Positions 40,009 to 60,743 of a DNA stretch of 64,000 nucleotides are shown here, piece after piece. The stretch's first letter is position 1. Each line of letters opens with the position of its first letter. The translations under genes and the position numbers were made by a program. Origin of the DNA: Candidatus Omnitrophota bacterium (GTDB lineage Bacteria; Omnitrophota; Gorgyraeia; Gorgyraeales; Gorgyraeaceae); NCBI GenBank assembly GCA_018824145.1, contig JAHJHC010000032.1, forward strand, positions 5,330 through 69,329, given 5' to 3'. Under the pieces are notes generated by a model. The model was not told the DNA's origin. It saw only the letters and a program-made list of their open reading frames with translations, and made no database searches.

Positions 40009-40515
40009 TTAATCGCTTATTAAGACCTCGAGCTGATTCTCAGATTCTTCTTCGGAGTCAGGCTCAGGTCTTTTTATTCTTTTTGCAGCCCTCACAAAAC
40101 TAATACTTTTTGCGAGCCATTCTTCAGTAATCCTGTTTCCTCTGTTTGGCTTAGTTACCTCATGGTAAGTCACCTTCACAGCATCGCCGACTTTTATATC
40201 GTTTAAACCCTGTTTATGCACCACCTTTGTATCTTCATCAATAAGAAAAGAATAATCAGTATTTGTCTCGGCATCACCTACGGCAATAACCGTGGGATTA
40301 AATCTGGGTGTAAAATAAATAACCTCTCCTACCAACTCTTTTTCTTTAATCATCTCTTTCACAGGAGACTGTTCGCCTTCTCCTTGCTCTTCGTCGTCTT
40401 CCTGAGCAACTCCTGCCCCTATGCCTCCTAAGAGAAAAACCGCTATTAAAAATATGAGACATACAAAAATCTTTTTCATCCCGCTATCCTCCTTACTTTT
40501 AAAAATAATATTCAT
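40009..40515 (-). CDS. Small secreted protein of unknown function, located immediately upstream of and co-oriented with the giant gene.
   Basis: The 168-aa protein has a signal peptide (KKIFVCLIFLIAVFLLGGIGAGVA), an acidic linker, a beta-rich domain and an acidic C-terminus. There is a 15-nt gap to the giant-gene ATG. Confidence 0.6.
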   Translation of the reverse strand: MNIIFKSKEDSGMKKIFVCLIFLIAVFLLGGIGAGVAQEDDEEQGEGEQSPVKEMIKEKELVGEVIYFTPRFNPTVIAVGDAETNTDYSFLIDEDTKVVHKQGLNDIKVGDAVKVTYHEVTKPNRGNRITEEWLAKSISFVRAAKRIKRPEPDSEEESENQLEVLISD

Positions 40516-41797: not shown

Positions 41798-41850
41798 AAA
41801 ATGCCTGGCACCTATCTAAAAGTGCCTGGCACTTTCTATCTAAAAACAAA
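41798..41850 (-). promoter_or_regulatory. Candidate operator or promoter region of the HUH-fusion, secreted-protein and giant-gene operon. It is a tandem 21-bp direct repeat, and each copy carries the palindrome TGCCTGGCA.
   Basis: tgcctggcacctatctaaaa (41802-) and tgcctggcactttctatctaaaaa (41823-) are centred about 25 and 45 bp upstream of the ATG at 41780. An AAGGAG SD precedes the ATG. Confidence 0.4.
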
Positions 41851-41873
41851 AAATCCAGGCGCATTGCCTGGAT
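41842..41873 (-). terminator. Intrinsic terminator separating the TMTC cluster and mini-gene from the giant-gene operon.
   Basis: The stem ATCCAGGC/GCCTGGAT (41853-41860 and 41866-41873) has the loop GCATT. On the minus strand it is followed by UUUUUGUUUUU. Confidence 0.6.
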
Positions 41874-41880
41874 TTCTCCT

Positions 41881-41994: not shown

Positions 41995-42023
41995 AGTATA
42001 CTCTATAATACATAAAAAATCAA
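41995..42023 (-). promoter_or_regulatory. Near-consensus sigma70-type promoter (TTGATT-N17-TATACT) driving the mini-gene.
   Basis: On the minus strand the -35 element ttgatt (complement of 42018-42023), a 17-nt spacer, and the -10 element tatact (complement of 41995-42000) are followed about 7 nt later by the SD. Confidence 0.45.
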
Positions 42024-42103
42024 GGGCCTCCCCAAAATTAGTACCGTTTGCTATTTAAATTCTTCGCCAACCTGCCGGGCAAACAGTACAAAAATCCTGC
42101 CTA

Positions 42104-44101
42104 TTACTCCCCCTCTTCTATACCCTTCTCCGAATACACTGCCTTCAAATGCCCCTTAATCTCAGCATTATCCGGCAAAAGAGAAGCAGCTTTTTTCAAG
42201 TAACCAAAGGCTTCATCCAAATCCCCTTTTCTATAATAAGCCCAACCCAGAGTATCCAAGGTTTCTGCACTTTCCGGATCAATAGATAAGGCCTTCTTAA
42301 GTAAGCCTATAGCCTCTGTAAAGTTATTCCTCTCAAGATAAATATAACCAAGATTATTATATGCAGCTATGCCCAATTCAGGGTCAAGTTTAATACTCTT
42401 TTTATAATATCCGATTGCTGTCTCATAATCAACTAATAAATCATACATAAGCCCAAGGTTATAGTATGCCTCTGCATAATCAGGTTCTAATTCAACGGCT
42501 TTTTTATACAATTCCGATGCCTCACTGACCTGATCTAAATCTTCATATAACACCCCTCCAAGATTATTATAAGCCTCTGCATAATCAGGCTTGATTTGAA
42601 TGGCCTTTCTAAAAGAGTTTATTGCATCATTTGTCTTTTTGCCCATATCGCGGTATGTGACACCTAAATTATTATATGTCCATGCATATCCTGAATCTAC
42701 CTCTAAGGCATTCTGATACGAATTGAGAGCATCTTCGTATAAACCAGTATTGTAGTACGCAGTACCAAGGTTATTGTAAGCCCTGTGGCTATTCGGAGAA
42801 GCCTCCACTGTCTTTGTCCAAAAAGTAACAGAGTCTCTCCAATCCAGGTTACGTTGCATGACAGTATAGGAATAGAAACTGACTACGGTAAAGATTAACA
42901 CTATAGTCGATCTTCTTGCTATCCTTTGTGGAAAAAACCGTAAGTCTAAAGAAGACAATGCTTGAACACCTATGGCAAGTAAAACGCATAATCCCACAGA
43001 AGGGATATATAGGCGCTGTTCGGCAATCGGCCTTGAGACTAAAAATATAATGTTAGAGATAGGTAAAAGGGTCAAAAATATCCAGAAAAGAAAGAATAAA
43101 ACCAGTCTCGAATGTCTAAATGCCTTAATGACTATAACTGTAAGGACAACGAGTAATAATGCAGAGAAAAGCACTGCGGGTTCAAAGAAAGATCCAGGTA
43201 TACTGAAAGACCGCTCGGCATTAAGATTAAAAGGAAATACAAGCAGTTTAACATAGTAACCTATGGTCTTTATGACAGTTAATATTTTAGGATACAGGCT
43301 GATCTTTACAACTAGATTCTTGCCTGAACCTACTGTTCCCAGGATAATTATTTTAAAAATAATATAAAGAATCGCAAGGCCCCAAAAAGGCAATGTCTTA
43401 GTTATAAAACCCTTGTATTCTTCTTTCGGAACAAAACATATAACATACAAGACTAATATAAACGGCAAAGTAATGGCCATTGCCTTTGAAAAAAGAGCGA
43501 GTATAAAACATAAAAGGCTTGCACTATAAAAAACTATACGGCTTTTCAATCTATCTTGAAGCCTGAATTTTGTAAAAAGAATGAATGATAAAATAAAAAA
43601 TATTAATGCCAAGGGATCAGAACGATTCTTTATCCACGTAATAGATTCAGTATGGATCGGGTGGACTGCAAAGAAGAGCGCTGAGAGAAAAGCCAGGTTA
43701 AATAACCTCCCGTGCCTTGTTTGCAGCGCGACTATATTAAGTATAAAGAAATATATTAAGATAACATTTATTATATGCAAGAAAAGGCTGGTCAGATGAT
43801 AGCCAAAGGGGTTTAATTTCCATAAAGAATAATCAAATGCAAAACTAGCCATTAATATAGGACGAAAATTCACCTTCTCCTCTTGATTATGCTCTCTACT
43901 CAACATTAAATAAAATTGCCTCCAATACCGGGGAGTGAATAAAGATGGGATATTCTTTGGATTACTAATATACTCCCCCTTCGACACAATAACCTTATCA
44001 TCCCAGATAAAGGAATTTTTGAAGGTATTGGAGTAGACAATAATAGATATAAGTATTAAAAATATAATAAAAATTGTGTGTTTACTGATAGCAGTATCCA
44101 T
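42104..44101 (-). CDS. TMTC/DUF1736-type GT-C membrane glycosyltransferase-like protein with C-terminal TPR repeats (paralog 5).
   Basis: The 665-aa protein has the N-terminal motif NSFIWDDKVIV and PFGYHLTSLFLHIINV, followed by about 10 TM helices and a C-terminal TPR array (AYNNLG.. repeats). Confidence 0.75.
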   Translation of the reverse strand: MDTAISKHTIFIIFLILISIIVYSNTFKNSFIWDDKVIVSKGEYISNPKNIPSLFTPRYWRQFYLMLSREHNQEEKVNFRPILMASFAFDYSLWKLNPFGYHLTSLFLHIINVILIYFFILNIVALQTRHGRLFNLAFLSALFFAVHPIHTESITWIKNRSDPLALIFFILSFILFTKFRLQDRLKSRIVFYSASLLCFILALFSKAMAITLPFILVLYVICFVPKEEYKGFITKTLPFWGLAILYIIFKIIILGTVGSGKNLVVKISLYPKILTVIKTIGYYVKLLVFPFNLNAERSFSIPGSFFEPAVLFSALLLVVLTVIVIKAFRHSRLVLFFLFWIFLTLLPISNIIFLVSRPIAEQRLYIPSVGLCVLLAIGVQALSSLDLRFFPQRIARRSTIVLIFTVVSFYSYTVMQRNLDWRDSVTFWTKTVEASPNSHRAYNNLGTAYYNTGLYEDALNSYQNALEVDSGYAWTYNNLGVTYRDMGKKTNDAINSFRKAIQIKPDYAEAYNNLGGVLYEDLDQVSEASELYKKAVELEPDYAEAYYNLGLMYDLLVDYETAIGYYKKSIKLDPELGIAAYNNLGYIYLERNNFTEAIGLLKKALSIDPESAETLDTLGWAYYRKGDLDEAFGYLKKAASLLPDNAEIKGHLKAVYSEKGIEEGE

Positions 44102-44108
44102 TATAATC

Positions 44109-46169
44109 TCAATCTTCAGTCTTCTGGAGATTTTCTAAATTCCCCTTGGCATCTTCGTTATCAGGATCAATCTCTAATATTCTCTCCCAATGACCTCTTG
44201 CCTTATTGATAAGTCCCTTATCGCGAAATATACGCGCAAGGTTTCTGTGGGCCTTTATATGATCAGGAGCTAGCTCAATAGTTTTTTCCAGGTATGTTAT
44301 TGCAGTGTCTTTTTCTCCTAAATCAGTATATAACGCGCCTATATTATTGTATGCATCAGCATATTCTGAATCAAGTTCAATAGCCTTCTTATAGTATCTC
44401 AATGCCTCTCCCTGAAGCCCTGATGAGTCATAAAATAACCCCAAGTTATAATAGGCCTCTGCATAGTCAGGTTTAAGCTCTATAGCCCTTTTATAGAGAA
44501 TCTCTACCTGACTAATCTGGCCGGACTCTGAATATAGGACCCCTGCAAGATTATTATATGCCTCTGCATAATCAGGTTTCAGTTCAATAGCCCTTTTTAG
44601 ATGCAGAAAGACATTATCAACTAAGCCATTTTCTATATAAAGCACCACACCAAGGTTACTATAGGCCTCTGCATAGCCAGGCATAAGTTCAATGGCCTTC
44701 TTGAATGCATCTATCGCCATCTCATTTTCTCCTATGTCGCGGTACGCGGCGCCAAGATTATTATACGCCATAGCATATTTTGGATCGATTTCTATAGCCT
44801 TTTTATATGAAGCTATGGCCTCCTGATATTGTCCGATATTATAGTATGCAGCGCCAAGATTATTATGGGTCCTCGCATTATTCGGAGATAAAGAAACTGC
44901 CTTTGTCCATAGTGTTAACGGCTTTCTCCAATCAAAGTTACGATTTATAGCAATAGTCGAGTAAAAAATAAATATGGCTATAGTAAATAACACTGCTAAG
45001 TTTTTCAAGATTTTACGGGAAAAAAACCTTGATTCTAAAAAAGGGATCGCCCTAATACCCATCGCAAGTATAATACAAAAACCCAATGAAGGGATGTAAA
45101 GGCGCTGTTCAGCGATAGGCCTTGCATACAAAAATATGATATTTGAAGCAGGAAGTAATGTTATGAAAAACCACAGGATTCCGAATGATACCATCCTGGA
45201 ATATTTTAATCCCCTTATAACCATAATCGCCAAAACCAACAACATCAGTGAAGATAGAACAACCCCTATCTCAAAAAACGATTTGGGGACAGATAGAAAA
45301 TGTTCGATATTAAGATTAATGGGGAGAATTAAAAGTTTCATATAATAACCCATGGTCTTAATGACTGCCAGGATATGATAATGTATGCCGAGCTTAATAA
45401 TGCTCTCATCCGAGAGCACACTTATAAGGCCCTTGAGCTTGAATGCAAGATAGAAAAATATAATTCCAAAATAGCTTCCTATACCGACCAATGCGCCTTT
45501 ATATTCTTTTTTTGGAAGGAAATAAATAGCATAGAGGATTAACACAAGGGGCAGTGTAATAGCTGTTTCTTTTGAAAAAAGTGCAAGCACGAAAGAAATC
45601 TGGCTTGCAAAATAAAGAATAATGCGGCCCCTGAGTACTTTTTCCTTAGAGACGTATTTTATAAAAAAAAGGAATGAAAGGAGTAAAAATAATAAACTCA
45701 ATAAATCAAAACGATTCTTTATCCATGCAATAGACTCTGTATGTACAGGATGCACGGCAAAGAATAATGCGGCAAGAAAAGGCAGGTCAAGTAAAACCCC
45801 CTCCTTTTCAGGCGGCCTTACTAATCTAAAAATAATAAGATATATCAGGATAACGTTTAATATATGCAGCAATAAGTTAGTCAAATGGTAACCAAAAGGT
45901 CTTAGATTCCATATTAAATAATCTAATGTAAAACTTGCAAGACTTACCGGTCGATACTGTCCCTTACTGCCCGGATAATAATAATTCCAATATTTAGGAT
46001 TAAATAAAAAGGGGATATCTTTTAAGCTCTTCGTATATCTATTATCAACGATCAACTCTTCTTCGTCCCACACGAACGGATTCTTGAAGGTATTGGAGAA
46101 AACAATAATAGAGATAAGAATCAATAAGATAAGAGGTATAAAATATTTCCTGGTATTATATTCTTCCAT
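44109..46169 (-). CDS. TMTC/DUF1736-type GT-C membrane protein with TPR repeats (paralog 4).
   Basis: The 686-aa protein has NPFVWDEEELIV and PFGYHLTNLLLHILNV, a multi-TM core and TPR repeats. Confidence 0.75.
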   Translation of the reverse strand: MEEYNTRKYFIPLILLILISIIVFSNTFKNPFVWDEEELIVDNRYTKSLKDIPFLFNPKYWNYYYPGSKGQYRPVSLASFTLDYLIWNLRPFGYHLTNLLLHILNVILIYLIIFRLVRPPEKEGVLLDLPFLAALFFAVHPVHTESIAWIKNRFDLLSLLFLLLSFLFFIKYVSKEKVLRGRIILYFASQISFVLALFSKETAITLPLVLILYAIYFLPKKEYKGALVGIGSYFGIIFFYLAFKLKGLISVLSDESIIKLGIHYHILAVIKTMGYYMKLLILPINLNIEHFLSVPKSFFEIGVVLSSLMLLVLAIMVIRGLKYSRMVSFGILWFFITLLPASNIIFLYARPIAEQRLYIPSLGFCIILAMGIRAIPFLESRFFSRKILKNLAVLFTIAIFIFYSTIAINRNFDWRKPLTLWTKAVSLSPNNARTHNNLGAAYYNIGQYQEAIASYKKAIEIDPKYAMAYNNLGAAYRDIGENEMAIDAFKKAIELMPGYAEAYSNLGVVLYIENGLVDNVFLHLKRAIELKPDYAEAYNNLAGVLYSESGQISQVEILYKRAIELKPDYAEAYYNLGLFYDSSGLQGEALRYYKKAIELDSEYADAYNNIGALYTDLGEKDTAITYLEKTIELAPDHIKAHRNLARIFRDKGLINKARGHWERILEIDPDNEDAKGNLENLQKTED

Positions 46170-47652
46170 AATTCACGACCTTTTTTTTAAAATGTGACAA
46201 ATAGTACTTTATATATATAATAAAACGGAAATCTCTTTTACAAAGTCCGATTGCTAACTGAAAGACAATAACTATAAAGCCAGGAATTATATGAAAATGC
46301 CTGTACAGCTTTTTCTTTATTATAAATCTCTTTAAAAAAGAAGGCATTACCGGAAACAACTTGTACAACTTTTCAAAATTGTCTTTCCATGCTTTATGAT
46401 GCGGGTCATTTATAGAGTCTTGATGAAAAAAATCCCCTACATTGCCTTTCTCAAAAGATTCGACATCTTTAGTATAGATTATTCCCAATTCTATAGCCCT
46501 GTCTACAATAGGCAGTTTCGGATAATACGCCAGGTAATAACATTTTAAACGATTAAAATATTTATGTGAATACATAAATTCAAGTGCTAACTCATAATCC
46601 TCTTCCTTGACCAAGGGTAAGCCGAATATTAAATCCACATCATACCTTAATTTCAGCTTGCCGCATATACTAAAGGCCTTGTCTATCTGGTCATTTGTCT
46701 CATTACGATGCAAAATATCCTTCCGTATACTCTCATTAAACGTCTGCACACCGAAATCTATACCGTAACAGCCTGAATCTTTCATTAATCTAATAAGGTC
46801 TTCGTCTACAAAACTTACATGACCCTCACATCTGAAAGGCACGGAAATCTCTTTTTTATATTCATGCAAAAATCCGCTCAGCCATTTTTTGTCCGTAAAA
46901 AACACGCTGTCAAAAAACATAACCCTTTTAAAATTATACCGTTTTTTCATTGCCTTTAATTCACTTATTACAGATGAAGCGCTCCGCCTTCTAAAATATC
47001 CATCACTATAAATCTTATGAAAATAAGCCTCGCAGCAATAACTGCAGCTAAAAACACAGCCCCTTGCTGTCATCACCATGTAATCATCTCTGTAATTTAT
47101 ATAATTCTCAAACAGTCCTTTATCCGGAAACGGCAATGAATCAAGATCCTTAATAGGCGGCCTTAGAGGATTCTTTATTACCTCGCCTCCTTTTTTATAC
47201 CATACATTAGGTATACTGTACTCTGGTCTATTTGATGAAAGAGTGTTTACTAAATCTAAAAGTGCATATTCACCTTCTCCGATAATAACAAAATCTACAA
47301 AATCATTCTTTACCACCTCTTCCGGAACAAGACTTACATGCACTCCCCCAAATACGGTCTTAACATTCATCTTTTCCTTTATGGTACGCGCAACATCACA
47401 GGTCCACTGATAGTTACTGGTATAAACCGAAAATGCAACGAGATCAGGGGTTGAACTCTCGATTCTGGAAATGACCTCATTTTTCCGGTCAAACACCCTT
47501 TCCAAAAAAGGGATATAAAACACATTGTCCTCTGTCCCGAAAAGTCCTGGATCATATGCTAATGAAATCTCATGGCCTGCTTTCTTCAAGACGCTTGACA
47601 AGTACTCTATACCTAAATGTTCTCTCCCCAAATGCACAAAGGTGACTTTCAT
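46156..47652 (-). CDS. B12-binding radical SAM enzyme (class B rSAM).
   Basis: The N-terminus is a B12-binding Rossmann-like domain (..DLVAFSVYTSNY..VFGGVHVSLVPEE). The radical SAM cluster motif is ARGCVFSCSYCCE (CxxxCxxC). Confidence 0.75.
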   Translation of the reverse strand: MKVTFVHLGREHLGIEYLSSVLKKAGHEISLAYDPGLFGTEDNVFYIPFLERVFDRKNEVISRIESSTPDLVAFSVYTSNYQWTCDVARTIKEKMNVKTVFGGVHVSLVPEEVVKNDFVDFVIIGEGEYALLDLVNTLSSNRPEYSIPNVWYKKGGEVIKNPLRPPIKDLDSLPFPDKGLFENYINYRDDYMVMTARGCVFSCSYCCEAYFHKIYSDGYFRRRSASSVISELKAMKKRYNFKRVMFFDSVFFTDKKWLSGFLHEYKKEISVPFRCEGHVSFVDEDLIRLMKDSGCYGIDFGVQTFNESIRKDILHRNETNDQIDKAFSICGKLKLRYDVDLIFGLPLVKEEDYELALEFMYSHKYFNRLKCYYLAYYPKLPIVDRAIELGIIYTKDVESFEKGNVGDFFHQDSINDPHHKAWKDNFEKLYKLFPVMPSFLKRFIIKKKLYRHFHIIPGFIVIVFQLAIGLCKRDFRFIIYIKYYLSHFKKKVVNYGRI

Positions 47653-47654
47653 CG

Positions 47655-49130
47655 TTATGTATGTCCTTTGATATAGAAATCCAATTTCTTGGCCTCTTCA
47701 TGATAGGCAATAAATTTCGGATCTTTTATAGATATATCTTCCTGGCTAAAGACCATGTCCAGAAAAGCTGAGAATTTCCTTTTGAATTCCGTAAATGAGC
47801 GGACTTTTAGTACAGCCTTTAATAAAAAATACGGTTGGGAATGGTAGCTTACATAGGCCCATCGTGCCATATGATCTATCTCTTCGTTCGTAAGTTTAGT
47901 CCAATGCCGGGGCAAAGGCCGGTCAGTCTCTTTTCCCAAGATCCAGTCCTTCCAGTAATCCTTCCCCATATTGTGCACCATTTCTTTCCATAAAGGAGTC
48001 AGGGGTTTTGCCAGGCACTTCGAAAACTGGACATAGTCTAACTTGAGTTCTTTGGCGAATCGGACTGTCTTTTTTACTGTTTTCTTAGTCTCTCCTGGAG
48101 AACCTATTAGGAAAAACCCCAATGCCCTTATCCCTAATTTTTTGGTAGCACGTATTGTCTCCCGGATCTGGTCCAATCTGATACCCTTTTTTACTCTATC
48201 AAGCATCTCTTGGGAGCCGGATTCAATCCCATAGTAGATCCTTCCACATCCTGCCTCTTTCATCTCTTTTAACATCTCTTTATCAATATCCACTCTCGAT
48301 CTGCATGCCCACAGGATATCAAGGTTTCTCTTCCTTATTTCGTGACATATAGCTATTGTCCTATCTTTATCGACTGTAAAATCATAATCGAAGATATCGA
48401 TCTCCCGGATACCATATTTATTATAGCACTCCTCCATCTCATTAACTACAGTCATTGGACGGCGTGGATTGTAGACGGTCCTGCCTGCCTCACAGAAGGT
48501 ACAATGGTACGGACAGCCAAGACTGGTAATCATGACAGTAAAATTCTTCCTCTCAGTGGGAAACTCGGCATAAAGCTCATTCGGCAAAAGGTCTCTGGCA
48601 GGATTAGGATATTTGTCAAAATCTACTAGTTTAGTAGGATTGATTTTTATCAGGCCCTTATCTTTATAAACAAGGCCATCCACGTCTTCCAGTCTTCCCT
48701 TACCTTCTAATGCAGAAAAAAGCTGGGGTATGGTATCTAAGGCCTGTTCGATTACTCCATAGTCTATCTCAGGATGGCTGATCGACTCCTCAGGATAGAC
48801 ACGCAGATTATAACCTCCTACTACTATTGGAATATCCAATCCTTTTTTAAGATACCGGATCCATTCCAATGTCTCAGGAAACATATAAGTAGTCATCATA
48901 AATCCCATTATGTCCGGCTTAAAACTCTTAAGTCTATCTAATACCCCTTCTTTAGTAAGATTTAAGGTCCGGGCATCAATAATTATTACTTCATGGCCGG
49001 CCTGACGTGCTATAGCTGCTACCCAGGCAAGGCTTAAAGGCGGAAACATCCCAAAATACTTCTGAACAATCCTTAAATTCTCCTCATGGACCTTGTATTT
49101 AAAAGGATTAAAAACTAAGGCAAATCTCAT
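47655..49130 (-). CDS. B12-binding radical SAM enzyme, a paralog of the adjacent gene.
   Basis: B12-binding N-domain (..DIMGFMMTTYMF..IVVGGYNLRVYPEE) and SLGCPYHCTFCEA (CxxxCxxC). Confidence 0.75.
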   Translation of the reverse strand: MRFALVFNPFKYKVHEENLRIVQKYFGMFPPLSLAWVAAIARQAGHEVIIIDARTLNLTKEGVLDRLKSFKPDIMGFMMTTYMFPETLEWIRYLKKGLDIPIVVGGYNLRVYPEESISHPEIDYGVIEQALDTIPQLFSALEGKGRLEDVDGLVYKDKGLIKINPTKLVDFDKYPNPARDLLPNELYAEFPTERKNFTVMITSLGCPYHCTFCEAGRTVYNPRRPMTVVNEMEECYNKYGIREIDIFDYDFTVDKDRTIAICHEIRKRNLDILWACRSRVDIDKEMLKEMKEAGCGRIYYGIESGSQEMLDRVKKGIRLDQIRETIRATKKLGIRALGFFLIGSPGETKKTVKKTVRFAKELKLDYVQFSKCLAKPLTPLWKEMVHNMGKDYWKDWILGKETDRPLPRHWTKLTNEEIDHMARWAYVSYHSQPYFLLKAVLKVRSFTEFKRKFSAFLDMVFSQEDISIKDPKFIAYHEEAKKLDFYIKGHT

Positions 49131-51418: not shown

Positions 51419-53135
51419 TAATCTCCCTATTTACGACATGGTTCGAGTTGCGATATGGTTCGAGCAGGGCCAAAAACTTAGGGTTTACCTCAGCCCTTAG
51501 CTCAATCGCCTTATCACAATATTCAACAGCCAAAGAATACTCTTTTTGATAATAATAAGCTACTGCCAGATTATTATATGCACCGGCATAATCTGGGTTC
51601 ATCTCTATGACTTTATTATATACGGATATGGCCCTTTCTTTTTTACCGCTTATCATATACATATTCGCAAGGTTATTATACGCATCTATATACTCGGGAT
51701 TGAGTTCGATGGCCTTCTTAAATGATGCTATTGCCTCTTCGTTTTTCTCAATAGCCTGATAAGCGACGCCTAGATTATTATGCGCAAGGACATACTTCGG
51801 ATAGATTTCTATGGCCTTTTTATAAGAGGCTATGGCCTTTTTAACCCTGCCAATATCGTAGTATTCTACTCCGAGGTTATTGTAGGCCCTGGGACTATTA
51901 TAGGAAGCCTCTGCGGTTTTCTGCCAAAAGGCAATAGGATTCCTCCAGTCAAAATTTCTTTTAATGGTGCTGGAAGAATAGAAGATAAATACGGTAAGGG
52001 CCAATAATACCGCAATCTTTTTAAGACCCAGGTTCCTGATACAGATAGCCAGGATAACGCAAAGGCCTACTGAAGGGATATAAAGGCGCTGTTCGGCAAT
52101 AGGCCTTGGGTATAGAAAGATTATATTGGAAACCGGTAGAATGGTTAAAAAAATCCATAGGACAATAAAGAAAAAGAACTTTGAACTTTTAAATTTTTTT
52201 ATAGCTATAATTGATGTGGAAACTACTAATGTCAAAGCAAAAAAGACCCTGGGCTCGAATATAGACTTAGGAATACGCATCACATGTTCTGCATTAAGCC
52301 CGACCGGAAAAATAAGCAGTTTTAAATAATAACCGAGTGTCTTGAAGACCATGAGTATATTAGAATAAAGCCCTATCTCAGAAATATATACCGCTGAGAC
52401 TATATTTATCAGATCTCCAAACTTTATGACAAGATAGACTATCATCAATCCAAAAAAAGGCAATATAGCAATCTTTGCTTTCTTTTGTTTATCTTTAGGG
52501 ATAAAGCTTAAGATATAAAAGAACAATATAAACGGTAAGGTAATAGCCATCTCTTTTGAAAGAAGCGCAATAGGGAAAAATAAAAGCGAACCGCAGTAAG
52601 ATAGCATCCGAAACCTTTTTCTTTCTTCTGACGTATACCTCATAAAAAGAAGGACCGATAAGAGAAAAAACAGCAACGATACAAGATCGAAACGGTTCTT
52701 TATCCATGTAACGGATTCGATATGTATGGGATGTGTGGCGAAGAATACCGCACTAAGGAAAGGGATGTTAATCAATCCTTTCCTGACATTCGGCTCCAGC
52801 AATTTAAATATAAAAAAATATATAAGTACGACATTTAAGATATGCAGCAAAAGATTAGTCAAATGATACCCAAATGCATTGTCTTCCCAAAAAAAGTAGT
52901 CTAATGCAAAGGTCATTAAGGTCACAGGCCGATATTGCCCCTTCAGCCCAGGATAATAATGGTTCCAGTATTGGGTGCTGAACAAAAAAGGGATATATTC
53001 TAAATCTTCAATATATTTATTCTCAACTATTAGATCCCTATCATCCCACATAAAGGGGTTCTTAAAGGTATTCGAGAAGATAACAGCTGATATAACTATA
53101 AGCAATATAATAGGTATTGCATGTTTATTTTTCAT
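51408..53135 (-). CDS. TMTC/DUF1736-type GT-C membrane protein with TPR repeats (paralog 2). I take the start at the internal Met (MKNKHAIPIILL...) rather than the track start at 53261.
   Basis: The protein has NPFMWDDRDLIV and AFGYHLTNLLLHILNV. The 53261 start would overlap the upstream gene by 137 nt, whereas the internal Met gives an 11-nt overlap like the other paralogs. Confidence 0.7.
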   Translation of the reverse strand: MKNKHAIPIILLIVISAVIFSNTFKNPFMWDDRDLIVENKYIEDLEYIPFLFSTQYWNHYYPGLKGQYRPVTLMTFALDYFFWEDNAFGYHLTNLLLHILNVVLIYFFIFKLLEPNVRKGLINIPFLSAVFFATHPIHIESVTWIKNRFDLVSLLFFLLSVLLFMRYTSEERKRFRMLSYCGSLLFFPIALLSKEMAITLPFILFFYILSFIPKDKQKKAKIAILPFFGLMIVYLVIKFGDLINIVSAVYISEIGLYSNILMVFKTLGYYLKLLIFPVGLNAEHVMRIPKSIFEPRVFFALTLVVSTSIIAIKKFKSSKFFFFIVLWIFLTILPVSNIIFLYPRPIAEQRLYIPSVGLCVILAICIRNLGLKKIAVLLALTVFIFYSSSTIKRNFDWRNPIAFWQKTAEASYNSPRAYNNLGVEYYDIGRVKKAIASYKKAIEIYPKYVLAHNNLGVAYQAIEKNEEAIASFKKAIELNPEYIDAYNNLANMYMISGKKERAISVYNKVIEMNPDYAGAYNNLAVAYYYQKEYSLAVEYCDKAIELRAEVNPKFLALLEPYRNSNHVVNREINGK

Positions 53136-55314
53136 CGATAACCCTATCTCGATATGGCTCAAGCAAGGCCAAAAATTCTGGTTTAACCCCTGAGCCAAGT
53201 TCAATGGCCTTATCACAATGCTCGATCGACAGGTCATATATCCGCTCGTAATAATACACAACTGCCAGATTGATGTGTGCTATTCCATATTCAGGGTCTA
53301 TTATTATGGCTTTTGTATATGAATTTATGGCCTTCTGATTATCTTTCATGGCCACATATACATTCCCGAGATTATTATACGCTTCTGCATAAGCTGAGTT
53401 GAACTCAATGGACTTTTCAAGGAAGTCTATAGCTTTATCGTTCTCTCCCATCACAGTATATATATTCCCTAGATTATTATATGCGCTTGCATTATACGGA
53501 TCGATTTTTATGGCATCCTGAAATGAGGTTATCGCCATTTGGTTATTGCCAAGCTTATGATATGCTATGCCAAGGTCATTATAGGCCCTAGAGAAATCAG
53601 GATTGATTGCCAAGGACTTTAAATACGAATCTATGGCTTTCTGGTCTTTTCCGAGATCCCTATACGCATTTCCGAGGTTATTATAGGCCAGTGCGTAATC
53701 GGAATCTATACTTACGGCTTTCTTATATGCATGTATGGCCCGTTCTGTCCTTCCGTCAGCACGATAAAGATTACCAAGACTGTTGTAGGCAGGCGCATAA
53801 TAAGGATTTACTTCTATGGCCTTCTTAAAAAGGTCCATAGCCCCTTCGTTATTATTGCCTATATCTACATATGTAATACCAAGGTTATTATAAACTTCGG
53901 CATTTGTCGGATCGATCTCTATTGCCCTTTCAAAAAATGTAATTGCCCTTAGAGACTGGCCTATTTCGCTATATATATTGCCGAGGTTATTGAACGCGTC
54001 TACGAGCTTTGGATCAAGTTCCAGTGCCTTTTCATACGACGCAATAGCATCTTCGACACTACCCCTGTCTCTGTATATATTGCCGATATTATTATATATT
54101 CCTGCGCTGTCTGGCGCATACTGTAAAATCCTTTTATAAAGCACCATAGGCTCTTTCCAGTAAGTATTCTGTCTAATGGTCAAATAAGAATAGAAACCCG
54201 ATACAACTGTTATAAGCAGTATAGTAAGTATCTTTAGATTTTTATTTCTATATAAATACACTGCTCCATTTGCCAATATAAGGAAAAATCCTATTGACGG
54301 CAGATACAACCAATGTTCAGCCATATAGGCATTTATAGGATAAAGATTGGATAAAGGGATAAGTGATATAAAAAACCAATATATAGAGAACGACAGCGGA
54401 TTGTTTTCCTTCTTTTTTATAAAACTATAAATTAATAAAGACACTGTTAATAAAATCCCTGCTATTGCCATAGGATCAACCCAGCTAAATACACTATTGC
54501 CGTACTGCATATGAAGGTCTGAAGGTAAAAATAAAAGCCTTATGTAATTAGCTATAGCGACAAAGAAACCCGGCATCCTCTGGAATACCGTAGTAGAAAA
54601 AACACTGCTATCAGGCAAAAAAGATTTTAGAATCGTTACTCTTGAAATGATGTAAATAAATGCTAAACACGATATAGGCACAAACGCCTTAATATTAAAT
54701 CTCTTCCTGAAAGTATAATGGTATAAAAAGAGCAACGCGGGAAAAATAATACTTAATTCTTTACATAAAAGAGCTAATATGTAAGTTATTAACATCACAA
54801 AATATGCACCAGGTTTTCCCGAATTTATATATTTTATATAACAAATAAATGAGGCGAGCATAAACAGCATAAATAAAGAATCCGATCTTCCAGATATATA
54901 AGCTATAGCTTCACTATGTATAGGATGGATAATAAATAAAATGCTTGTAATTAAAGACAAAAGTGCATCTTTATAAAGAATGGCAATCAGCCAATATACA
55001 GCCAGGCCGACTAAGATATGCAACAAGATATTGGTAAGATGATAACCTGAAACATTTAATCTCCATAATGAATAATCAAGACGGTAGGTAAATATCTGAA
55101 GCGGGTGATAAAGACTGCTCCTTTTTCCGACACCGGCTTCCACATCTTGCGTAAAAATCTCCGGTAAATAATCCCATTTTTTTATAAATGTATTATTTCT
55201 TACTAAATCCTCATCGTCCCAGACAAACTTATTGTTTAAAGAATTTACGTAGACACCAAGACCTAGGATGATTATTACAAAGATAGCTATAATAGTAAAC
55301 TTATGTCCTGACAT
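53125..55314 (-). CDS. TMTC/DUF1736-type GT-C membrane protein with TPR repeats (paralog 1, the most divergent).
   Basis: The 729-aa protein has NKFVWDDEDLV and VSGYHLTNILLHILV. The C-terminus carries about 9 TPR repeats. Confidence 0.7.
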   Translation of the reverse strand: MSGHKFTIIAIFVIIILGLGVYVNSLNNKFVWDDEDLVRNNTFIKKWDYLPEIFTQDVEAGVGKRSSLYHPLQIFTYRLDYSLWRLNVSGYHLTNILLHILVGLAVYWLIAILYKDALLSLITSILFIIHPIHSEAIAYISGRSDSLFMLFMLASFICYIKYINSGKPGAYFVMLITYILALLCKELSIIFPALLFLYHYTFRKRFNIKAFVPISCLAFIYIISRVTILKSFLPDSSVFSTTVFQRMPGFFVAIANYIRLLFLPSDLHMQYGNSVFSWVDPMAIAGILLTVSLLIYSFIKKKENNPLSFSIYWFFISLIPLSNLYPINAYMAEHWLYLPSIGFFLILANGAVYLYRNKNLKILTILLITVVSGFYSYLTIRQNTYWKEPMVLYKRILQYAPDSAGIYNNIGNIYRDRGSVEDAIASYEKALELDPKLVDAFNNLGNIYSEIGQSLRAITFFERAIEIDPTNAEVYNNLGITYVDIGNNNEGAMDLFKKAIEVNPYYAPAYNSLGNLYRADGRTERAIHAYKKAVSIDSDYALAYNNLGNAYRDLGKDQKAIDSYLKSLAINPDFSRAYNDLGIAYHKLGNNQMAITSFQDAIKIDPYNASAYNNLGNIYTVMGENDKAIDFLEKSIEFNSAYAEAYNNLGNVYVAMKDNQKAINSYTKAIIIDPEYGIAHINLAVVYYYERIYDLSIEHCDKAIELGSGVKPEFLALLEPYRDRVIDEK

Positions 55315-56254
55315 ATCTATTTGGGTTAACCAGTCTATTTAAGAATGGTTTTATAAAAAACAATCCGAATAAAATAGGGCAGATTACATTAACAAAAGAT
55401 AGTAAAAGACCGCTTCCTAAAAGCCTATCTGGAACCGCATATTCTGAAAAAAATACTAGAATAGCTGATTCCCTGGTGCCTAATCCCCCGAATGTTATTG
55501 GTAAGGATGCGAGAAGCAGAACAATAGGGGTAAAAATCAAAAAGGCCTCAATGGGTATTTCTATGCTGAATGCCTTAAAAAGAAAAAAGGCGTTTATCAA
55601 TTTGCATCCTTCAAACCCTAAAGAATATATAAATAAAGTAACTAGCGATTTTATACTAAACTTTTCGATAAGGACTTTGAATATTTCTCTAGGCCGAGGG
55701 CTCATCTTTCTAGAGTTCTTAATAAAATTAATAAGTATTGAATTTCTAAAAAGTATTATTATAAAAAAGAAAACTAAAAATATTACGGCAAAATAAATCT
55801 TTTGATATAGCTCAAGTTTATAGAAAAACCAGCCGACAGAAATAAAAGAGATTAAAGCAAAAAAGCTAAAACTATATACTAATATTACGGAACTTATGCC
55901 CCTGGCATAAGAGAAATCGTGTCTTTTGTGTAAATACGCCACCATAACGGATTCTCCGATTTTGAATGGAAGGATACCTTTTATAGGTGCACTACCCATG
56001 CGTAGTATAAGGGTCTCAAAAAAGGGGATATTACACCCTAATAGTTCAAGTATTTTTTTATACCTTGCCGGAGAAAAACATGTATGCGCTATAAATGAAA
56101 AAAAAATTGCTCCAGCAAGGAATCTAACCTCTATCTGTGCCAATAGGTTCTTTACTTCAGAGAACCGAATCTTTGAAAATATAATAGTAAAAACAGAGAT
56201 GGTTATTACCCAGGTGATAATAAATCTCAGTAATTGTTTTCGCTGGTTAATCAT
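55301..56254 (-). CDS. Flippase-like polytopic membrane protein (lysyl-PG-synthase TM / YbhN-like domain).
   Basis: The 317-aa protein has about 8 TM helices and a C-terminal LPITFGGLGTRESAIL motif. It sits between the GT9 and TMTC genes. Confidence 0.4.
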   Translation of the reverse strand: MINQRKQLLRFIITWVITISVFTIIFSKIRFSEVKNLLAQIEVRFLAGAIFFSFIAHTCFSPARYKKILELLGCNIPFFETLILRMGSAPIKGILPFKIGESVMVAYLHKRHDFSYARGISSVILVYSFSFFALISFISVGWFFYKLELYQKIYFAVIFLVFFFIIILFRNSILINFIKNSRKMSPRPREIFKVLIEKFSIKSLVTLFIYSLGFEGCKLINAFFLFKAFSIEIPIEAFLIFTPIVLLLASLPITFGGLGTRESAILVFFSEYAVPDRLLGSGLLLSFVNVICPILFGLFFIKPFLNRLVNPNRYVRT

Positions 56255-56257
56255 ATT

Positions 56258-57499
56258 TTACAATAGCGCCATTACCTTTTCATAGACATTCTCTACCGTT
56301 ATATTTCTCAAACATGCCCCTATTTTACAAGATGATTTCCTATGATTGTAGGCATTTACACAAGGGCTACAAACTAAATTTGAGCTAATATTTTCCCGAT
56401 GATTTTTATCTTTTCCATAAAGCAAAGGTGTTTCAGGGCCAAAAAGAATTATAGCTTTTACTGGAGTTAGACTTGAAAAAAGAGCTGGCCCGCTGTCATT
56501 CGTTACTAATATATCCGCTATGGAATACAAAGTCAGCAGATCTTTTAAAGAAGTAAGCCCGGCTACGGATGTGGCTTTTCCTATTTTAGATGCTATCAGA
56601 TCTGCCTTCTGCTTTTCTTTAACAGTACCTGTTATTAATATCGTAGACCTAGGTAATCCTTCTTGAATAAGTTTGCCTAATTTTATAAAATTCTCTTCAG
56701 GCCATCTTCTTATTGGTAACAAATCGGCTGTATTTGGATTTAATATAATAATTGGTTTGTCTAAACTAGAACATTTTCCGCCAGAGGCGGACCTGCCTCC
56801 GGCGGGCAACTGCTCAAGTTTTCTTATTAACAATTCTTTTTCATCTTCGGTAGGAGAAAAAATAGGAAGACTATCCGTTACCTTAGGGACTTCAAAAATC
56901 ATAGGAGTGCCATCTTTAGGAGGAGCATAATTCAATGCCTCTACTAAACTCACAAAAAAAACTGAAGCATGTAAGTAAGGATTATATAATAATTTATGAG
57001 TAAATAAATCTCCTCGGTAAGGCCCATCACTAGTAAATTGATGTAATCCCACTTTTTTATCCGCACCTGATAAATATGAAATAATTGCTGATGTCCTTGA
57101 AAAAAATTCCATATCTATGGCAGCATCTATTTTTTCTTTGCGTATCCTAATCAGGGCCTTAAAGCCTGAATAAATAAGGCTTATAAGATCCTTGGAATCA
57201 ACCTCTATAAGATTAGCTTGAGGGATTATATCCAGTATATCTAAAATCGGCCGATTTTTTTTGAGGACTAAAAAAAAGATATGTTCCCTTCCTGCGAAAT
57301 TTTTTGCTTTTTTTAGAGCCGGGTAAGCTAATACTGTCGAACCTTGCTCGATTAATTTTATAAAAAGAATTTTGGCGGGTTTTTTATAATGGCGGGGGTC
57401 TTTTTTGAGAATACTATAGAGCCTTCTGTGAATGGTCAGAAAAAAACAGAATGGACGACCTAAATTTTTGTCTATCCAGCGAATGAGGTCTGGATTCAC
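56258..57499 (-). CDS. Glycosyltransferase family 9 (ADP-heptose heptosyltransferase-like).
   Basis: The C-terminal motif ADILVTNDSGPALFSSL matches the GT9 signature (D-x-L-V-T-N-D-S-G-P), and the protein has a GT-B two-domain length of 413 aa. Confidence 0.65.
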   Translation of the reverse strand: MNPDLIRWIDKNLGRPFCFFLTIHRRLYSILKKDPRHYKKPAKILFIKLIEQGSTVLAYPALKKAKNFAGREHIFFLVLKKNRPILDILDIIPQANLIEVDSKDLISLIYSGFKALIRIRKEKIDAAIDMEFFSRTSAIISYLSGADKKVGLHQFTSDGPYRGDLFTHKLLYNPYLHASVFFVSLVEALNYAPPKDGTPMIFEVPKVTDSLPIFSPTEDEKELLIRKLEQLPAGGRSASGGKCSSLDKPIIILNPNTADLLPIRRWPEENFIKLGKLIQEGLPRSTILITGTVKEKQKADLIASKIGKATSVAGLTSLKDLLTLYSIADILVTNDSGPALFSSLTPVKAIILFGPETPLLYGKDKNHRENISSNLVCSPCVNAYNHRKSSCKIGACLRNITVENVYEKVMALL

Positions 57500-57533
57500 C
57501 TTTTTTTATCCTTTTCGTACCCAATTAAAAATT

Positions 57534-58268
57534 TTATCTGTTAAAAAACAGGCCTTTTTTCTTCTTTTTCTCTTCTTTCTTTAAAGGTTCGGTTTCTTGC
57601 GCGACAATTTTTTTAACGCTTTCTTCTTTTACCTCCACCACCTCCTGCTCTTCCTGAACAGGTGATTCCGCAGCCTCATCTTCTACTTCATCAGGTACGG
57701 CTTTCACTTCTTCTTTGATAATTTTCTTCTCTGATTCAATAGCCTTATCTCCTACCATTCCTTCTTCAACCTGAGTCCCAGACTCTTCTGGTTCCTCAGA
57801 TATCATTTCTTTTCCCAGGCTGACAAACGTATAATCCTTTTTTTTCTTTTCGTCTACATGCCAGCTCAAAACACCCCGCATGTTTTCACTGGAAATCTGA
57901 CCTCTCCAAAACGCAATACCTTTCTCTTCACTGGTCTGCATTGTCTCCCAGACAACGATTTCTTTATCTTTACCTTTAAGTCTTACCGTATAACCACTGG
58001 ACGGAAATCCTTCCGAAGATAATTTCTCCGAAATAATCTTATTATTTTCAAAACGCAATGTATCACTCTCTTTTTTATCGGTCTTGTCTGACATTTCTTT
58101 CAGCTCAATCTGCCACACAGTATTGTTAAGCCCGGCTTTTGCCTCAGAAATCATTTCTTGTTCTGTCCTGGGCTCTTCATCTTTTTCTTTTTCCCGCGCC
58201 ATACAAACCGAAACTAATCCTAGAGTTAAAATTATAAATGCGGAACATATTGAAATCTTCTTAATCAT
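57534..58268 (-). CDS. Secreted WETMQ-domain protein with a Glu-rich C-terminal tail (paralog 2).
   Basis: It has a signal peptide ([24 protein letters not shown]). The core ..[83 protein letters not shown] is followed by an acidic tail. Confidence 0.6.
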
Positions 58269-60289: not shown

Positions 60290-60304
60290 GTTTATACGTT
60301 ATAA

Positions 60305-60736: not shown

Positions 60737-60743
60737 GCCTCTC

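What the first reader, a model, noticed from the sequence alone, without database searches (positions are those of the whole stretch)
42104..57499. Five TMTC-like GT-C paralogs plus GT9, a flippase and two B12-rSAM enzymes: a candidate dedicated O-glycosylation system for the giant Ig-repeat protein
Nine co-oriented, overlapping genes lie within about 2 kb of the giant gene. Five proteins have the DUF1736/TMTC N-terminal signature (F[VIM]WDD...GYHLTN.LLH), a multi-TM GT-C core and 8-10 TPR repeats. Eukaryotic TMTC1-4 are known O-mannosyltransferases that specifically modify beta-strands of cadherin Ig-like domains using a lipid-linked sugar and TPR-mediated substrate recognition. Here five paralogs sit beside a protein made of more than 100 Ig-like S/T-rich domains. 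A flippase-like protein and a GT9 enzyme supply plausible donor-handling steps. Bacterial TMTC homologs are essentially uncharacterised.
Basis: partly seen in the sequence, partly recalled or inferred. Interest (0 to 1): 0.8.

Follow-up and report, generated by a model that had tools for sequence, protein, structure and literature searches.

The report
TMTC-like glycosylation cassette beside giant adhesin
An uncultured Omnitrophota bacterium carries a nine-gene cassette, with five true relatives of the animal cadherin O-mannosyltransferases (TMTC), inserted into a conserved secretion locus just upstream of a 10,669-residue Ig-repeat surface protein, but related genomes show the cassette is an optional add-on to that secretion system rather than a fixed partner of the giant gene.

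Summary

The "dedicated to the giant protein" reading is only partly supported. The wider family is mostly made of lone genes in many phyla. In Omnitrophota, the rSAM/TMTC-like core (with GT9 in five of eight loci) lies next to type II secretion/type IV pilus-like genes in 7 of 8 loci.

Seven loci carry a homologous giant Ig-repeat gene. Three contain the cassette, at different positions. Two closely matching loci (L129, L131) keep the window's gene order without it. The giant protein is therefore a plausible substrate, but not the only one. Pseudopilins, as with TfpW, are a serious rival. This is a new variant of a known kind and has not been tested experimentally.

The parts
42104..44101 (-). 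TMTC-like GT-C + TPR paralogue 1 (665 aa)
   Evidence: Paralogue alignment. TPR Pfam hits. BLASTP to TMTC1/3/4 E about 1e-18.
44109..46169 (-). TMTC-like GT-C + TPR paralogue 2 (686 aa; = P0001)
46156..47652 (-). B12-binding radical SAM enzyme A (498 aa)
   Evidence: Pfam B12-binding + Radical_SAM. CVFSCSYC motif. Closest solved relative TokK, E 2e-12.
47655..49130 (-). B12-binding radical SAM enzyme B (491 aa)
   Evidence: Pfam. CPYHCTFC motif. Closest solved relative AprD4 sugar diol-dehydratase, E 4e-28. 73-78% identical across 7 related loci.
49127..51418 (-). TMTC-like GT-C + TPR paralogue 3 (763 aa)
51408..53135 (-). TMTC-like GT-C + TPR paralogue 4 (575 aa from the ATG at 53135; about 5 TPR)
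53125..55314 (-). TMTC-like GT-C + TPR paralogue 5 (729 aa; most divergent, 35% identity; AEHWLY in place of AEQRLY)
   Evidence: (weak PMT/PMT_2).
55301..56254 (-). MprF-type flippase-like membrane protein (317 aa)
   Evidence: PF03706 at 93 bits (GA 33.4). TIGR00374 at 58 bits (cut-off 43.2).
56258..57499 (-). GT9-family GT-B glycosyltransferase (413 aa), specificity unknown
   Evidence: PF01075 at 61.5 bits. Heptosyltransferase equivalogs far below cut-off. PDB 3tov E 7e-9. Orthologues 53-57% identical in 5 loci.
57534..58268 (-). Secreted 244-aa protein with a 'WETMQ' domain (conserved locus component)
   Evidence: Paralogy to o143 and to the p422 C-terminus, E 1e-16 to 1e-20. Orthologues in L129 and L131.
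58261..59757 (-). SurA_N + cyclophilin peptidyl-prolyl isomerase
   Evidence: Pfam. A PPIase in this position is reported upstream of Omnitrophota giant genes.
59762..61985 (-). Three conserved locus genes: o175, o143 (WETMQ domain) and a coiled-coil/TPR protein
62020..63882 (-). Secretin (GspD/PilQ type)
   Evidence: Pfam Secretin + Secretin_N. AAA_16 ATPase and a 229-aa gene lie just upstream, outside the window.
41848..41878 (-). Terminator-like hairpin between the cassette and the giant-gene unit
   Evidence: 13-bp stem plus T-run.
40512..41780 (-). 422-aa protein: Y1-transposase-like N-domain + TM + coiled coil + WETMQ domain; conserved partner of the giant gene
   Evidence: Pfam Y1_Tnp. 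Paralogy. More than 60 full-length clusters at 45-58% identity in Omnitrophota. Found upstream of Ig-giant genes in L092, L094, L095, L129 and L131.
40009..40515 (-). 168-aa secreted protein immediately upstream of the giant gene
   Evidence: Homologues in the same position in L089, L091, L092, L094, L095, L096 and L131.
7984..39993 (-). Giant protein, 10,669 aa: N-terminal membrane anchor, N-domain, 85 Ig-like (Kre9_KNH-type) repeats, 736-aa C-terminal region. Candidate substrate.
   Evidence: Homologues in L089, L091, L092-L096, L129 and L131.

Best explanation
The nine genes form a lipid-linked-sugar, periplasmic protein-glycosylation cassette of the TMTC (GT105-like) type. In this genome it has been inserted into the conserved Omnitrophota 'secretin, PPIase, giant gene' locus.

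Proposed mechanism. A sugar is assembled on a polyprenyl-phosphate carrier at the cytoplasmic face. GT9 is the candidate for this step, and a GT2 encoded elsewhere is the alternative. The two B12-radical-SAM enzymes tailor the sugar; enzyme B is most like the sugar-dehydratase AprD4. The MprF-like protein flips the lipid-linked sugar to the periplasmic face. The five GT-C paralogues then use it. Each has its DD/DE active-site loop and its TPR domain facing the periplasm. They glycosylate Ser/Thr of proteins exported by the associated type II secretion/type IV pilus-like machine.

In this genome the leading candidate acceptor is the Sec-exported 10,669-aa protein with its 85 Ig-like repeats. 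The five paralogues may divide the work among different strands or repeat subtypes, as TMTC1-4 do for cadherin EC domains.

Shown here: gene content; TMTC homology, fold and motifs; Ig-like repeats; recurrent synteny with the secretion locus.

Inferred only: donor identity, the roles of GT9, the rSAM enzymes and the flippase-like protein, the topology, protein as acceptor, and the giant protein as substrate.
For: TMTC membership by sequence: BLASTP 24-27% identity over about 400 aa, E 1e-12 to 1e-27. hhalign probability 100%, E 8e-49, 392 columns. ArnT gives nothing.

The catalytic and donor-phosphate motifs of TMTCs are conserved in all five paralogues. The helix pattern is 11 TM followed by TPR.

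TMTC1-4 and TMEM260 modify beta-strands of Ig-like domains (PMC11292533). The giant protein is 85 Ig-like repeats with a Ser conserved in 92% of repeats (as S or T) in the last strand.

The cassette sits together with secretin-set genes (the AAA_16/p229 end is outside the stretch fetched for L089), an o168 homologue and an Ig-repeat giant homologue in three diverged genomes, with different gene orders: the window, L089 and L091. The orthologues are 53-78% identical, and the giants' N-domains are about 30% identical.

The rSAM-B/TMTC-like pair is next to T2SS/T4P-like genes in 7 of 8 loci.
Against: L129, L131, L092 and L094 carry homologous giant loci without the cassette in view. L129 and L131 have exactly the window's order minus the nine genes.

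The cassette core also occurs beside T2SS E/F, pseudopilin and PilMN genes with no giant gene in view within the 10-kb flanks fetched (L004, L006, L086).

The wider family is mostly lone genes in many phyla.

There is no GT2 polyprenyl-P-sugar synthase in the window. A terminator-like hairpin separates the cassette from the giant-gene unit.

Pfam DUF1736 is not matched, and the TMTC 'DW' motif reads E-[RH].

There are no experimental data for any bacterial member in the searched literature.
Confidence: 0.4

Rival explanations
1. The cassette glycosylates pseudopilins/pilins or other parts of the type II secretion/type IV pilus-like machine, not the giant protein. This would make it a TfpW-like pilin glycosylation system. 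Its position next to the giant gene follows only from the giant gene's own linkage to the secretion locus.
For: P. aeruginosa TfpW has the same architecture: cytoplasmic N-terminus, 11 TM, a DDX motif in periplasmic loop 1, a periplasmic TPR domain, and 646 aa. It glycosylates type IV pilin and is encoded next to pilA (bioRxiv 10.1101/2020.04.19.049825).

In L004, L006 and L086 the rSAM-B + TMTC-like core (with GT9 in L006 and L086) directly follows T2SS-F, the PilM/N-type gene and its neighbours; T2SS-E and the N_methyl pseudopilin genes are annotated in L004 and L086, and no giant gene is in view in any of the three. In L090 a TMTC-like gene alone sits in that position.

7 of 8 rSAM-B loci touch T2SS/T4P-like genes, while only 3 of 8 show a giant gene.
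Against: No pilin-like (N_methyl) gene is present in the window or in the 10 kb upstream of it. Five paralogues seem excessive for a few small pilins. Homology to TfpW itself was not tested.
Confidence: 0.2
2. It is a general periplasmic protein O-glycosylation system with many substrates. The tandem paralogues widen substrate range, and the giant protein is at most one of many acceptors.
For: The family is very widespread. It usually occurs as lone genes or as tandem arrays of 2-5 without giant genes or rSAM partners. L003 is a 49%-identical lone gene among housekeeping genes. Yeast PMTs and mycobacterial Pmt are general enzymes.
Against: The Omnitrophota subfamily that carries the 73-78% conserved rSAM-B sits at one kind of locus, which argues for a specific partner.
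Confidence: 0.2
3. The acceptor is not a protein. The GT-C enzymes decorate a lipid or a glycan such as LPS/lipid A, a cell-wall or capsular polymer, or a hopanoid-like lipid. GT9, the rSAM enzymes and the flippase-like protein would then belong to envelope glycolipid synthesis.
For: GT9 enzymes are classically LPS-core heptosyltransferases. The best NCBIfam hits for the rSAM enzymes are the lipid-associated HpnJ, the ladderane-type lipid rSAM and BchE. PF03706 is a lipid-flippase-type domain. L088 and L087 place the module among GT2/GT4, epimerase, nucleotidyl-transferase, MurJ/Wzx-like and further PMT_2 genes. ArnT, Emb and Aft GT-C enzymes act on lipids and glycans.
Confidence: 0.15

Closest known systems
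Metazoan TMTC1-4 (CAZy GT105), cadherin/protocadherin O-mannosyltransferases
   Same: The N-terminal GT-C domain is homologous over its full length (E 8e-49 profile-profile, 24-27% identity). The DD, YRP, LFAxHPxHTE...R.D, KE and AE..LYxPS motifs are shared. The architecture is 11 TM plus a C-terminal TPR domain. Paralogues come in multiples (4 in vertebrates, 5 here). The neighbouring candidate substrate is made of Ig-like domains.
   Different: This system is bacterial and would use undecaprenyl-type rather than dolichol carriers. Pfam DUF1736 is not matched and the DW motif is replaced by E-[RH]. The genes are clustered with B12-rSAM, GT9 and MprF-like flippase genes, which have no TMTC counterpart. 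The sugar, the acceptor and the activity are all untested.
Pseudomonas aeruginosa TfpW (GT-C pilin D-arabinofuranosyl transferase)
   Same: It is a bacterial GT-C with 11 TM, a periplasmic DDX loop and a periplasmic C-terminal TPR domain, about 650 aa long. It is encoded within a type IV pilus locus, uses a polyprenyl-P-sugar donor and needs a small flippase.
   Different: Homology to the window proteins was not tested because no sequence was available. TfpW is single-copy, lies next to pilA, and has no rSAM or GT9 partners.
PMT family (GT39): yeast Pmt1-7, POMT1/2, actinobacterial Pmt
   Different: PMTs carry a luminal MIR domain instead of C-terminal TPRs. The window proteins fall below the Pfam PMT thresholds.
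TMEM260 (GT117), O-mannosyltransferase of IPT (Ig-like) domains
   Same: It is a GT-C plus TPR-like luminal module dedicated to an Ig-like domain class.
   Different: It is a different GT-C family (DUF2723). No similarity test was run here.
Conserved T2SS-like locus upstream of Omnitrophota giant genes (West-Roberts et al. 2023, bioRxiv 10.1101/2023.11.21.568195)
   Same: Secretin and peptidyl-prolyl isomerase genes precede a giant gene in an Omnitrophota genome.
   Different: The main text of that paper, searched by term, and the 2026 complete-genome preprint, searched the same way, describe no TMTC-like/GT-C, B12-rSAM, GT9 or flippase-like cassette beside giant genes; 'radical SAM' and 'TPR' occur there only as domains within giant proteins. 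The PPIase here is a cyclophilin with SurA_N, not Rotamase_2.

Membership tests
TMTC / GT105 O-mannosyltransferases | Significant full-length sequence homology of the membrane domain to TMTC1-4 | tested here: met
   BLASTP E 1e-12 to 1e-27 (database size set to 1e8) for all five paralogues. hhalign probability 100%, E 8e-49, 392 columns. TMTC sequences were taken from the supplement of PMC7801869.
TMTC / GT105 O-mannosyltransferases | GT-C fold with 11 TM helices | tested here: met
TMTC / GT105 O-mannosyltransferases | Catalytic DD in loop 1, plus the H/K-YRP, D...K and AER(V) donor-phosphate motifs | tested here: met
   WD[DE] is invariant in all five. YRP is present in 4 of 5 (YHP in the fifth). 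R153/D155 and K200 are invariant. AEQRLY is present in 4 of 5 (AEHWLY in the fifth).
TMTC / GT105 O-mannosyltransferases | Pfam DUF1736 (TM7-TM8 loop) with the conserved DW motif | tested here: not met
   No PF08409 hit in any of the five or in 17 family members, even at E up to 10 or 0.1. The loop does align in hhalign, but DW is replaced by E-[RH].
TMTC / GT105 O-mannosyltransferases | C-terminal TPR domain on the same (non-cytoplasmic) side as the active site | tested here: inconclusive
   The TPR domain is certain. Its side is inferred from the odd TM count and from homology, not measured.
TMTC / GT105 O-mannosyltransferases | Transfers mannose from polyprenyl-P-Man to Ser/Thr on beta-strands of Ig-like domains | not testable with these tools
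   This needs biochemistry or glycoproteomics.
GT9 (heptosyltransferase family) | Pfam Glyco_transf_9 above the gathering score; LPS heptosyltransferase equivalog scores | tested here: inconclusive
   PF01075 at 61.5 bits (GA 22) is met. The NCBIfam heptosyltransferase I/II/III models score far below their cut-offs (55.7 against 134.6). The protein belongs to the family, but its specificity is unknown.
B12-binding radical SAM enzymes | N-terminal B12-binding domain + radical SAM core with CxxxCxxC | tested here: met
   Both Pfam domains score above GA in both proteins. The motifs CVFSCSYC and CPYHCTFC are present. No equivalog-level assignment was reached.
MprF-type flippase-like domain (PF03706 / TIGR00374) | Profile match above the curated cut-offs | tested here: met
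   93 bits (GA 33.4) and 58.3 bits (cut-off 43.2). Flippase activity itself was not tested.
Kre9/KNH-like Ig-like domain (PF10342) | Profile match of the giant protein's repeat unit | tested here: inconclusive
   A two-repeat piece scores 33.8 bits (GA 24.6). The repeat consensus alone scores 21.8 bits, below GA. 5,000-aa pieces gave no hits at E 1e-3. No structure model was made for the repeat.
TfpW-type pilin GT-C glycosyltransferases | Homology to TfpW and a position next to the major pilin gene | not tested
   No TfpW sequence was available. No pilin gene lies in the window. Related loci L004 and L086 do have N_methyl pseudopilin genes.

The most novel reading that the evidence does not exclude
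[quoted passage not shown] They would use a lipid-linked sugar built by a GT9 enzyme, tailored by B12-radical-SAM enzymes and flipped by an MprF-like protein. If so, the 'TPR-guided GT-C modifies Ig-like adhesion domains' logic of cadherin O-mannosylation arose in bacteria, and a new sugar-tailoring chemistry feeds it.
Probability: 0.2. Interest if true: 0.85.

Novelty: new variant of a known kind. Interest (0 to 1): 0.6.

Why it matters
TMTC enzymes are disease-linked cadherin O-mannosyltransferases. Their substrate recognition and their evolutionary origin are both unresolved, and in the library searched no bacterial homologue has been characterised.

This locus provides compact bacterial TMTC homologues. 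They are modelled with high confidence and sit in a genomic setting that names concrete candidate substrates: Ig-like repeats of a giant exported protein, or pseudopilins. It also names candidate donor-pathway enzymes.

It adds a new, variable component to the secretion locus that precedes Omnitrophota giant genes, namely the nine-gene glycosylation cassette. A B12-radical-SAM enzyme that stays 73-78% identical across diverged loci points to an undescribed tailoring step for a lipid-linked sugar.

Tried and rejected
1. Pfam, NCBIfam and PDB sequence searches on the TM domains gave nothing useful: only a weak PMT hit on paralogue 5, no DUF1736 and no PDB hit even with a profile. Homology became clear only after TMTC sequences were taken from a paper's supplement.

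2. A Foldseek search with the full-length model was swamped by TPR proteins such as OGT and SPY. A second model of the TM domain alone was needed. The AFDB library was unavailable.

3. The giant protein's N-terminal 567 aa found no relatives as a single query, either in metagenome contigs or in the protein database. Relatives appeared only through neighbours of TMTC-like homologues (L089, L091) and then through an alignment-based scan.

4. My first conclusion, 'no linkage to giant genes at all', came from the 80 cross-phylum loci. It was revised after the Omnitrophota-specific loci were examined.

5. Reading the 422-aa 'transposase' as a mobile element that explains the adjacency was rejected. 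It is a conserved full-length partner of the giant gene in many Omnitrophota.

6. The GT2 genes in related loci (L088, L091) could not be assigned as polyprenyl-P-sugar synthases.

7. L057 (Auribacterota), with three similar repeats 6 kb from a TMTC-like gene, is not a second instance.
Full report
**What is in the window.** Every sizeable ORF is on the minus strand. In the direction of transcription, from high to low coordinates, the order is as follows.

- Secretin (62020-63882).
- A coiled-coil/TPR protein.
- Two small secreted proteins, o143 and o175.
- A SurA_N-cyclophilin isomerase.
- A 244-aa secreted protein.
- The nine genes of the finding (57499-42104).
- A 323-bp gap containing a 13-bp-stem terminator-like hairpin.
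- A 422-aa protein, then a 168-aa protein.
- A 10,669-aa ORF (39993-7984).
- An F-type ATP synthase operon.

The source is a Candidatus Omnitrophota MAG: P0001 is 100% identical to one of the ORFs and lies on an 87.6-kb NCBI contig. Just outside the window, upstream of the secretin, lie an AAA_16 ATPase, a 229-aa gene and two-component regulators.

**Check of the observation.**

- The nine genes overlap or abut, with junctions of -14 to +7 nt.
- Five are paralogues at 35-51% identity. They have very strong C-terminal TPR hits and the quoted F.WD[DE] and GYHLT[NS] motifs.
- The other four are two B12-binding radical SAM enzymes, an LPG_synthase_TM/TIGR00374 'flippase-like' protein and a GT9-family enzyme.
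- The giant protein has an N-terminal membrane anchor and 85 contiguous repeats of about 110 aa between residues 568 and 9933 (own HMM).
- The repeats match the Pfam Kre9_KNH Ig-like domain at 33.8 bits on a two-repeat piece. S+T content is about 19%.

Corrections: there are 85 repeats, not more than 100. There are about 5-10 TPRs, not 8-10. The quoted motif is not the DUF1736 segment, and Pfam DUF1736 is not matched at all.

**Are the five proteins TMTC-like GT-C enzymes? Yes.**

- Library searches on the membrane domain were nearly blank.
- I therefore rebuilt the N-terminal domains of human TMTC1-4 and Drosophila TMTC1 and TMTC4 from the alignment in the supplement of Eisenhaber et al. 2021 (PMC7801869).
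- BLASTP of each window paralogue against them gives 24-27% identity over about 400 residues, with E 1e-12 to 1e-27 at a nominal database size of 1e8.
- A profile of 17 bacterial members aligns to the TMTC profile with probability 100%, E 8e-49, over 392 columns. ArnT gives no signal in the same test.
- The motifs that paper ties to catalysis and donor-phosphate binding are conserved: DD, YRP, D...K and AER. The stretch LFAVHPxHTE is nearly identical.
- AlphaFold2 models are confident (pLDDT 91.7 full length, 85.8 for the TM domain). They show 11 long helices followed by TPR hairpins.
- One defining feature fails. The DUF1736 profile is not matched, and the TMTC 'DW' motif in that loop reads E-[RH].

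I therefore file these proteins as bacterial members of the TMTC superfamily, not as orthologues of TMTC1-4.

**Is the cassette linked to the giant gene? Only in part.**

(a) Family-wide view.
- In the 80 best loci, fetched with flanks of up to 10 kb, only one has an ORF of 2,000 aa or more. Only one has the Ig repeat, and that is an unrelated three-repeat protein in Auribacterota.
- 22 of the 80 have two to five tandem paralogues without any giant gene.
- A 49%-identical homologue is a lone gene among housekeeping genes.

(b) The Omnitrophota subfamily.
- The B12-rSAM 'B' enzyme is 73-78% identical across loci. GT9 is 53-57% and the secretin 50-62%.
- Eight loci carry this orthologue together with TMTC-like genes. 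Seven of them also carry type II secretion/type IV pilus-like genes.
- In three of these (L004, L006, L086) the neighbours are T2SS-F and a PilM/N-type gene; T2SS-E and N_methyl pseudopilin genes are annotated in L004 and L086.
- In the other four (window, L087, L089, L091) the neighbours are secretin-set genes: AAA_16, p229, secretin and the coiled-coil protein, except that only the secretin and coiled-coil end lies inside the stretch fetched for L089.

(c) Two of those loci repeat the whole composite.
- L089 reads: secretin, coiled-coil, PPI_N-like, WETMQ protein, rSAM A, rSAM B, two TMTC-like genes, GT9 (opposite strand), a toxin-antitoxin pair, an o168 homologue, and then a 1,905-aa protein with 15 copies of the same repeat.
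- L091 reads: GT2, rSAM, GT9, rSAM B, rSAM A, rSAM, flippase-like, rSAM, TMTC-like, AAA_16, p229, secretin, coiled-coil, PPI_N-like, WETMQ protein, an o168 homologue, and then a protein of at least 1,988 aa cut by the contig end. Its N-domain is about 30% identical to that of the window giant.

(d) View from the giant-gene side.
- An alignment-based metagenome scan and two look-ups of p422 homologues gave further homologous giant loci.
- L129 encodes a giant of at least 8,471 aa. Its order is AAA_16, p229, secretin, coiled-coil, o143, o175, PPIase, ORF244, p422, then two small genes (150 and 151 aa) where the window has the single o168, then the giant. Through p422 this is exactly the window's order with the nine genes missing between ORF244 and p422.
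- L131 matches this apart from lacking o143 (it carries an o168 homologue before the giant). The 2 kb visible upstream of AAA_16 there holds two-component genes, as in the window's source contig.
- L092 and L094 also lack the cassette within 10 kb upstream.
- Tally: 3 of 7 assessable giant loci carry the cassette, at two different insertion points.

**Interpretation.**
- The nine genes behave as a movable cassette. Its constant association is with the type II secretion/type IV pilus-like apparatus of Omnitrophota.
- West-Roberts et al. (2023) report that this apparatus precedes giant genes across the phylum.
- The cassette is found beside the inner-membrane platform and pilin genes in some genomes. 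In others it lies beside, or inside, the secretin/giant-gene locus.
- That pattern fits a glycosylation module serving an exported product of this machine. It does not tell us which product.
- Evidence for the giant protein as substrate:
  - The known preference of TMTC1-4 and TMEM260 for beta-strands of Ig-like domains.
  - The Sec-type N-terminal anchor of the giant protein.
  - A Ser conserved (as S or T) in 92% of the 85 repeats in the last strand.
  - The threefold recurrence with shuffled order.
  - Anecdotally, the largest paralogue count (five) sits next to the largest repeat count.
- Evidence for pilins as substrate:
  - TfpW is a characterised bacterial 11-TM + TPR GT-C enzyme that glycosylates type IV pilin.
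  - Some loci show the cassette core beside T2SS E/F, PilMN and, where annotated, pseudopilin genes, with no giant gene in view.
- A non-protein acceptor cannot be excluded. GT9 and the lipid-type rSAM similarities point that way, and sugar-polymer genes surround the module in L087 and L088.

**Mechanistic steps, shown and inferred.**
- Shown: gene content, homology, fold, motif conservation and synteny.
- Inferred from family knowledge: a polyprenyl-phosphate-sugar donor, a periplasmic active site and TPR domain, and flipping by the PF03706 protein.
- Speculative: GT9 as the enzyme that loads or extends the lipid-linked sugar, and the two B12-rSAM enzymes as sugar tailors. Enzyme B's closest solved relative is the aminoglycoside sugar dehydratase AprD4 (E 4e-28). 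Enzyme A's closest is the methyltransferase TokK.
- No GT2 polyprenyl-P-sugar synthase lies in the window. GT2 genes in related loci could not be assigned.

**Novelty.**
- Prokaryotic TMTC homologues are mentioned in passing in the literature.
- My searches of the held library found no characterised bacterial member. They also found no description of this cassette or of its link to Omnitrophota secretion/giant-gene loci.
- I rate it a new variant of a known kind, namely GT-C/TPR protein glycosylation. It is of real interest, but its substrate is unproven.

Noticed in passing
window 40512-41780 (-); also 57534-58268 and 60305-60736: Three proteins in the locus share a domain of about 110 aa, called 'WETMQ' here (30-35% identity, E 1e-15 to 1e-20). 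One copy is the C-terminus of the 422-aa protein annotated as 'transposase'. That protein has a Y1/IS200-like N-domain, a TM helix, a coiled coil and then the WETMQ domain. The HUH motif is present, but the usual Tyr in the YI..NP motif reads RHIHLNP. Full-length homologues are common in Omnitrophota and sit upstream of giant Ig-repeat genes, so it looks like a domesticated locus component rather than a mobile element.
   Followed up: partly
window 40009-40515 (-): A 168-aa secreted protein lies immediately upstream of the giant gene. It has homologues in the same position in L089, L091, L092, L094, L095, L096 and L131. No Pfam family matches it. It may be a chaperone or partner of the giant protein.
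   Followed up: partly
window 47655-49130 (-): B12-radical-SAM enzyme B is unusually conserved. It is 73-78% identical across seven loci in which GT9 is about 55%, the secretin 50-62% and the giants' N-domains about 30%. Its closest solved relative is the sugar diol-dehydratase AprD4.
   Followed up: partly
window 41848-41878 (-): A strong terminator-like hairpin (13-bp stem plus T-run) lies in the 323-bp gap between the last TMTC-like gene and the 422-aa gene. It suggests that the cassette and the giant-gene unit are transcribed separately.
   Followed up: no
window 7984-10194 (-), giant aa 9934-10669: The non-repeat C-terminal region of the giant protein has relatives at the ends of other metagenomic Ig-repeat giants (L097-L099). 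Its last 150 aa or so look helical or coiled.
   Followed up: no
window about 38790-39350 (-), giant aa about 215-400: The window's giant protein carries an insertion of about 185 aa relative to the L089 and L091 homologues. The insertion gives a weak DUF4082 hit (E 8e-4).
   Followed up: no
window 51408-53261 (-): The mechanical ORF starts at a TTG 42 codons upstream and overlaps the preceding gene by 137 nt. The ATG at 53135 gives an N-terminus that matches the other paralogues and an 11-nt overlap.
   Followed up: yes
window 8001-40000 vs 42001-58000: The giant gene has 41-44% G+C, while the cassette has 33-40%. This may reflect amino-acid composition (T/D/G/V-rich versus membrane/TPR proteins) or a different history for the inserted cassette.
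   Followed up: no
giant protein repeats (window 10195-38292): Across the 85 repeats, one Ser in the last strand (motif d.S..F.I) is S in 86% and S or T in 92%. The Thr after the conserved Trp in Y.WT.P is S or T in 54%. These are candidate acceptor positions, or simply structural residues.
   Followed up: partly
L089 14453-15081: A nucleotidyltransferase/HepT toxin-antitoxin pair is inserted between the cassette and the o168 + Ig-repeat gene. GT9 is inverted there. Both point to local rearrangement around the cassette.
   Followed up: no
L013, L088 loci and one search hits: TMTC-like proteins also appear in MAGs labelled Woesearchaeota and Patescibacteria. Binning errors were not ruled out.
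   Followed up: no
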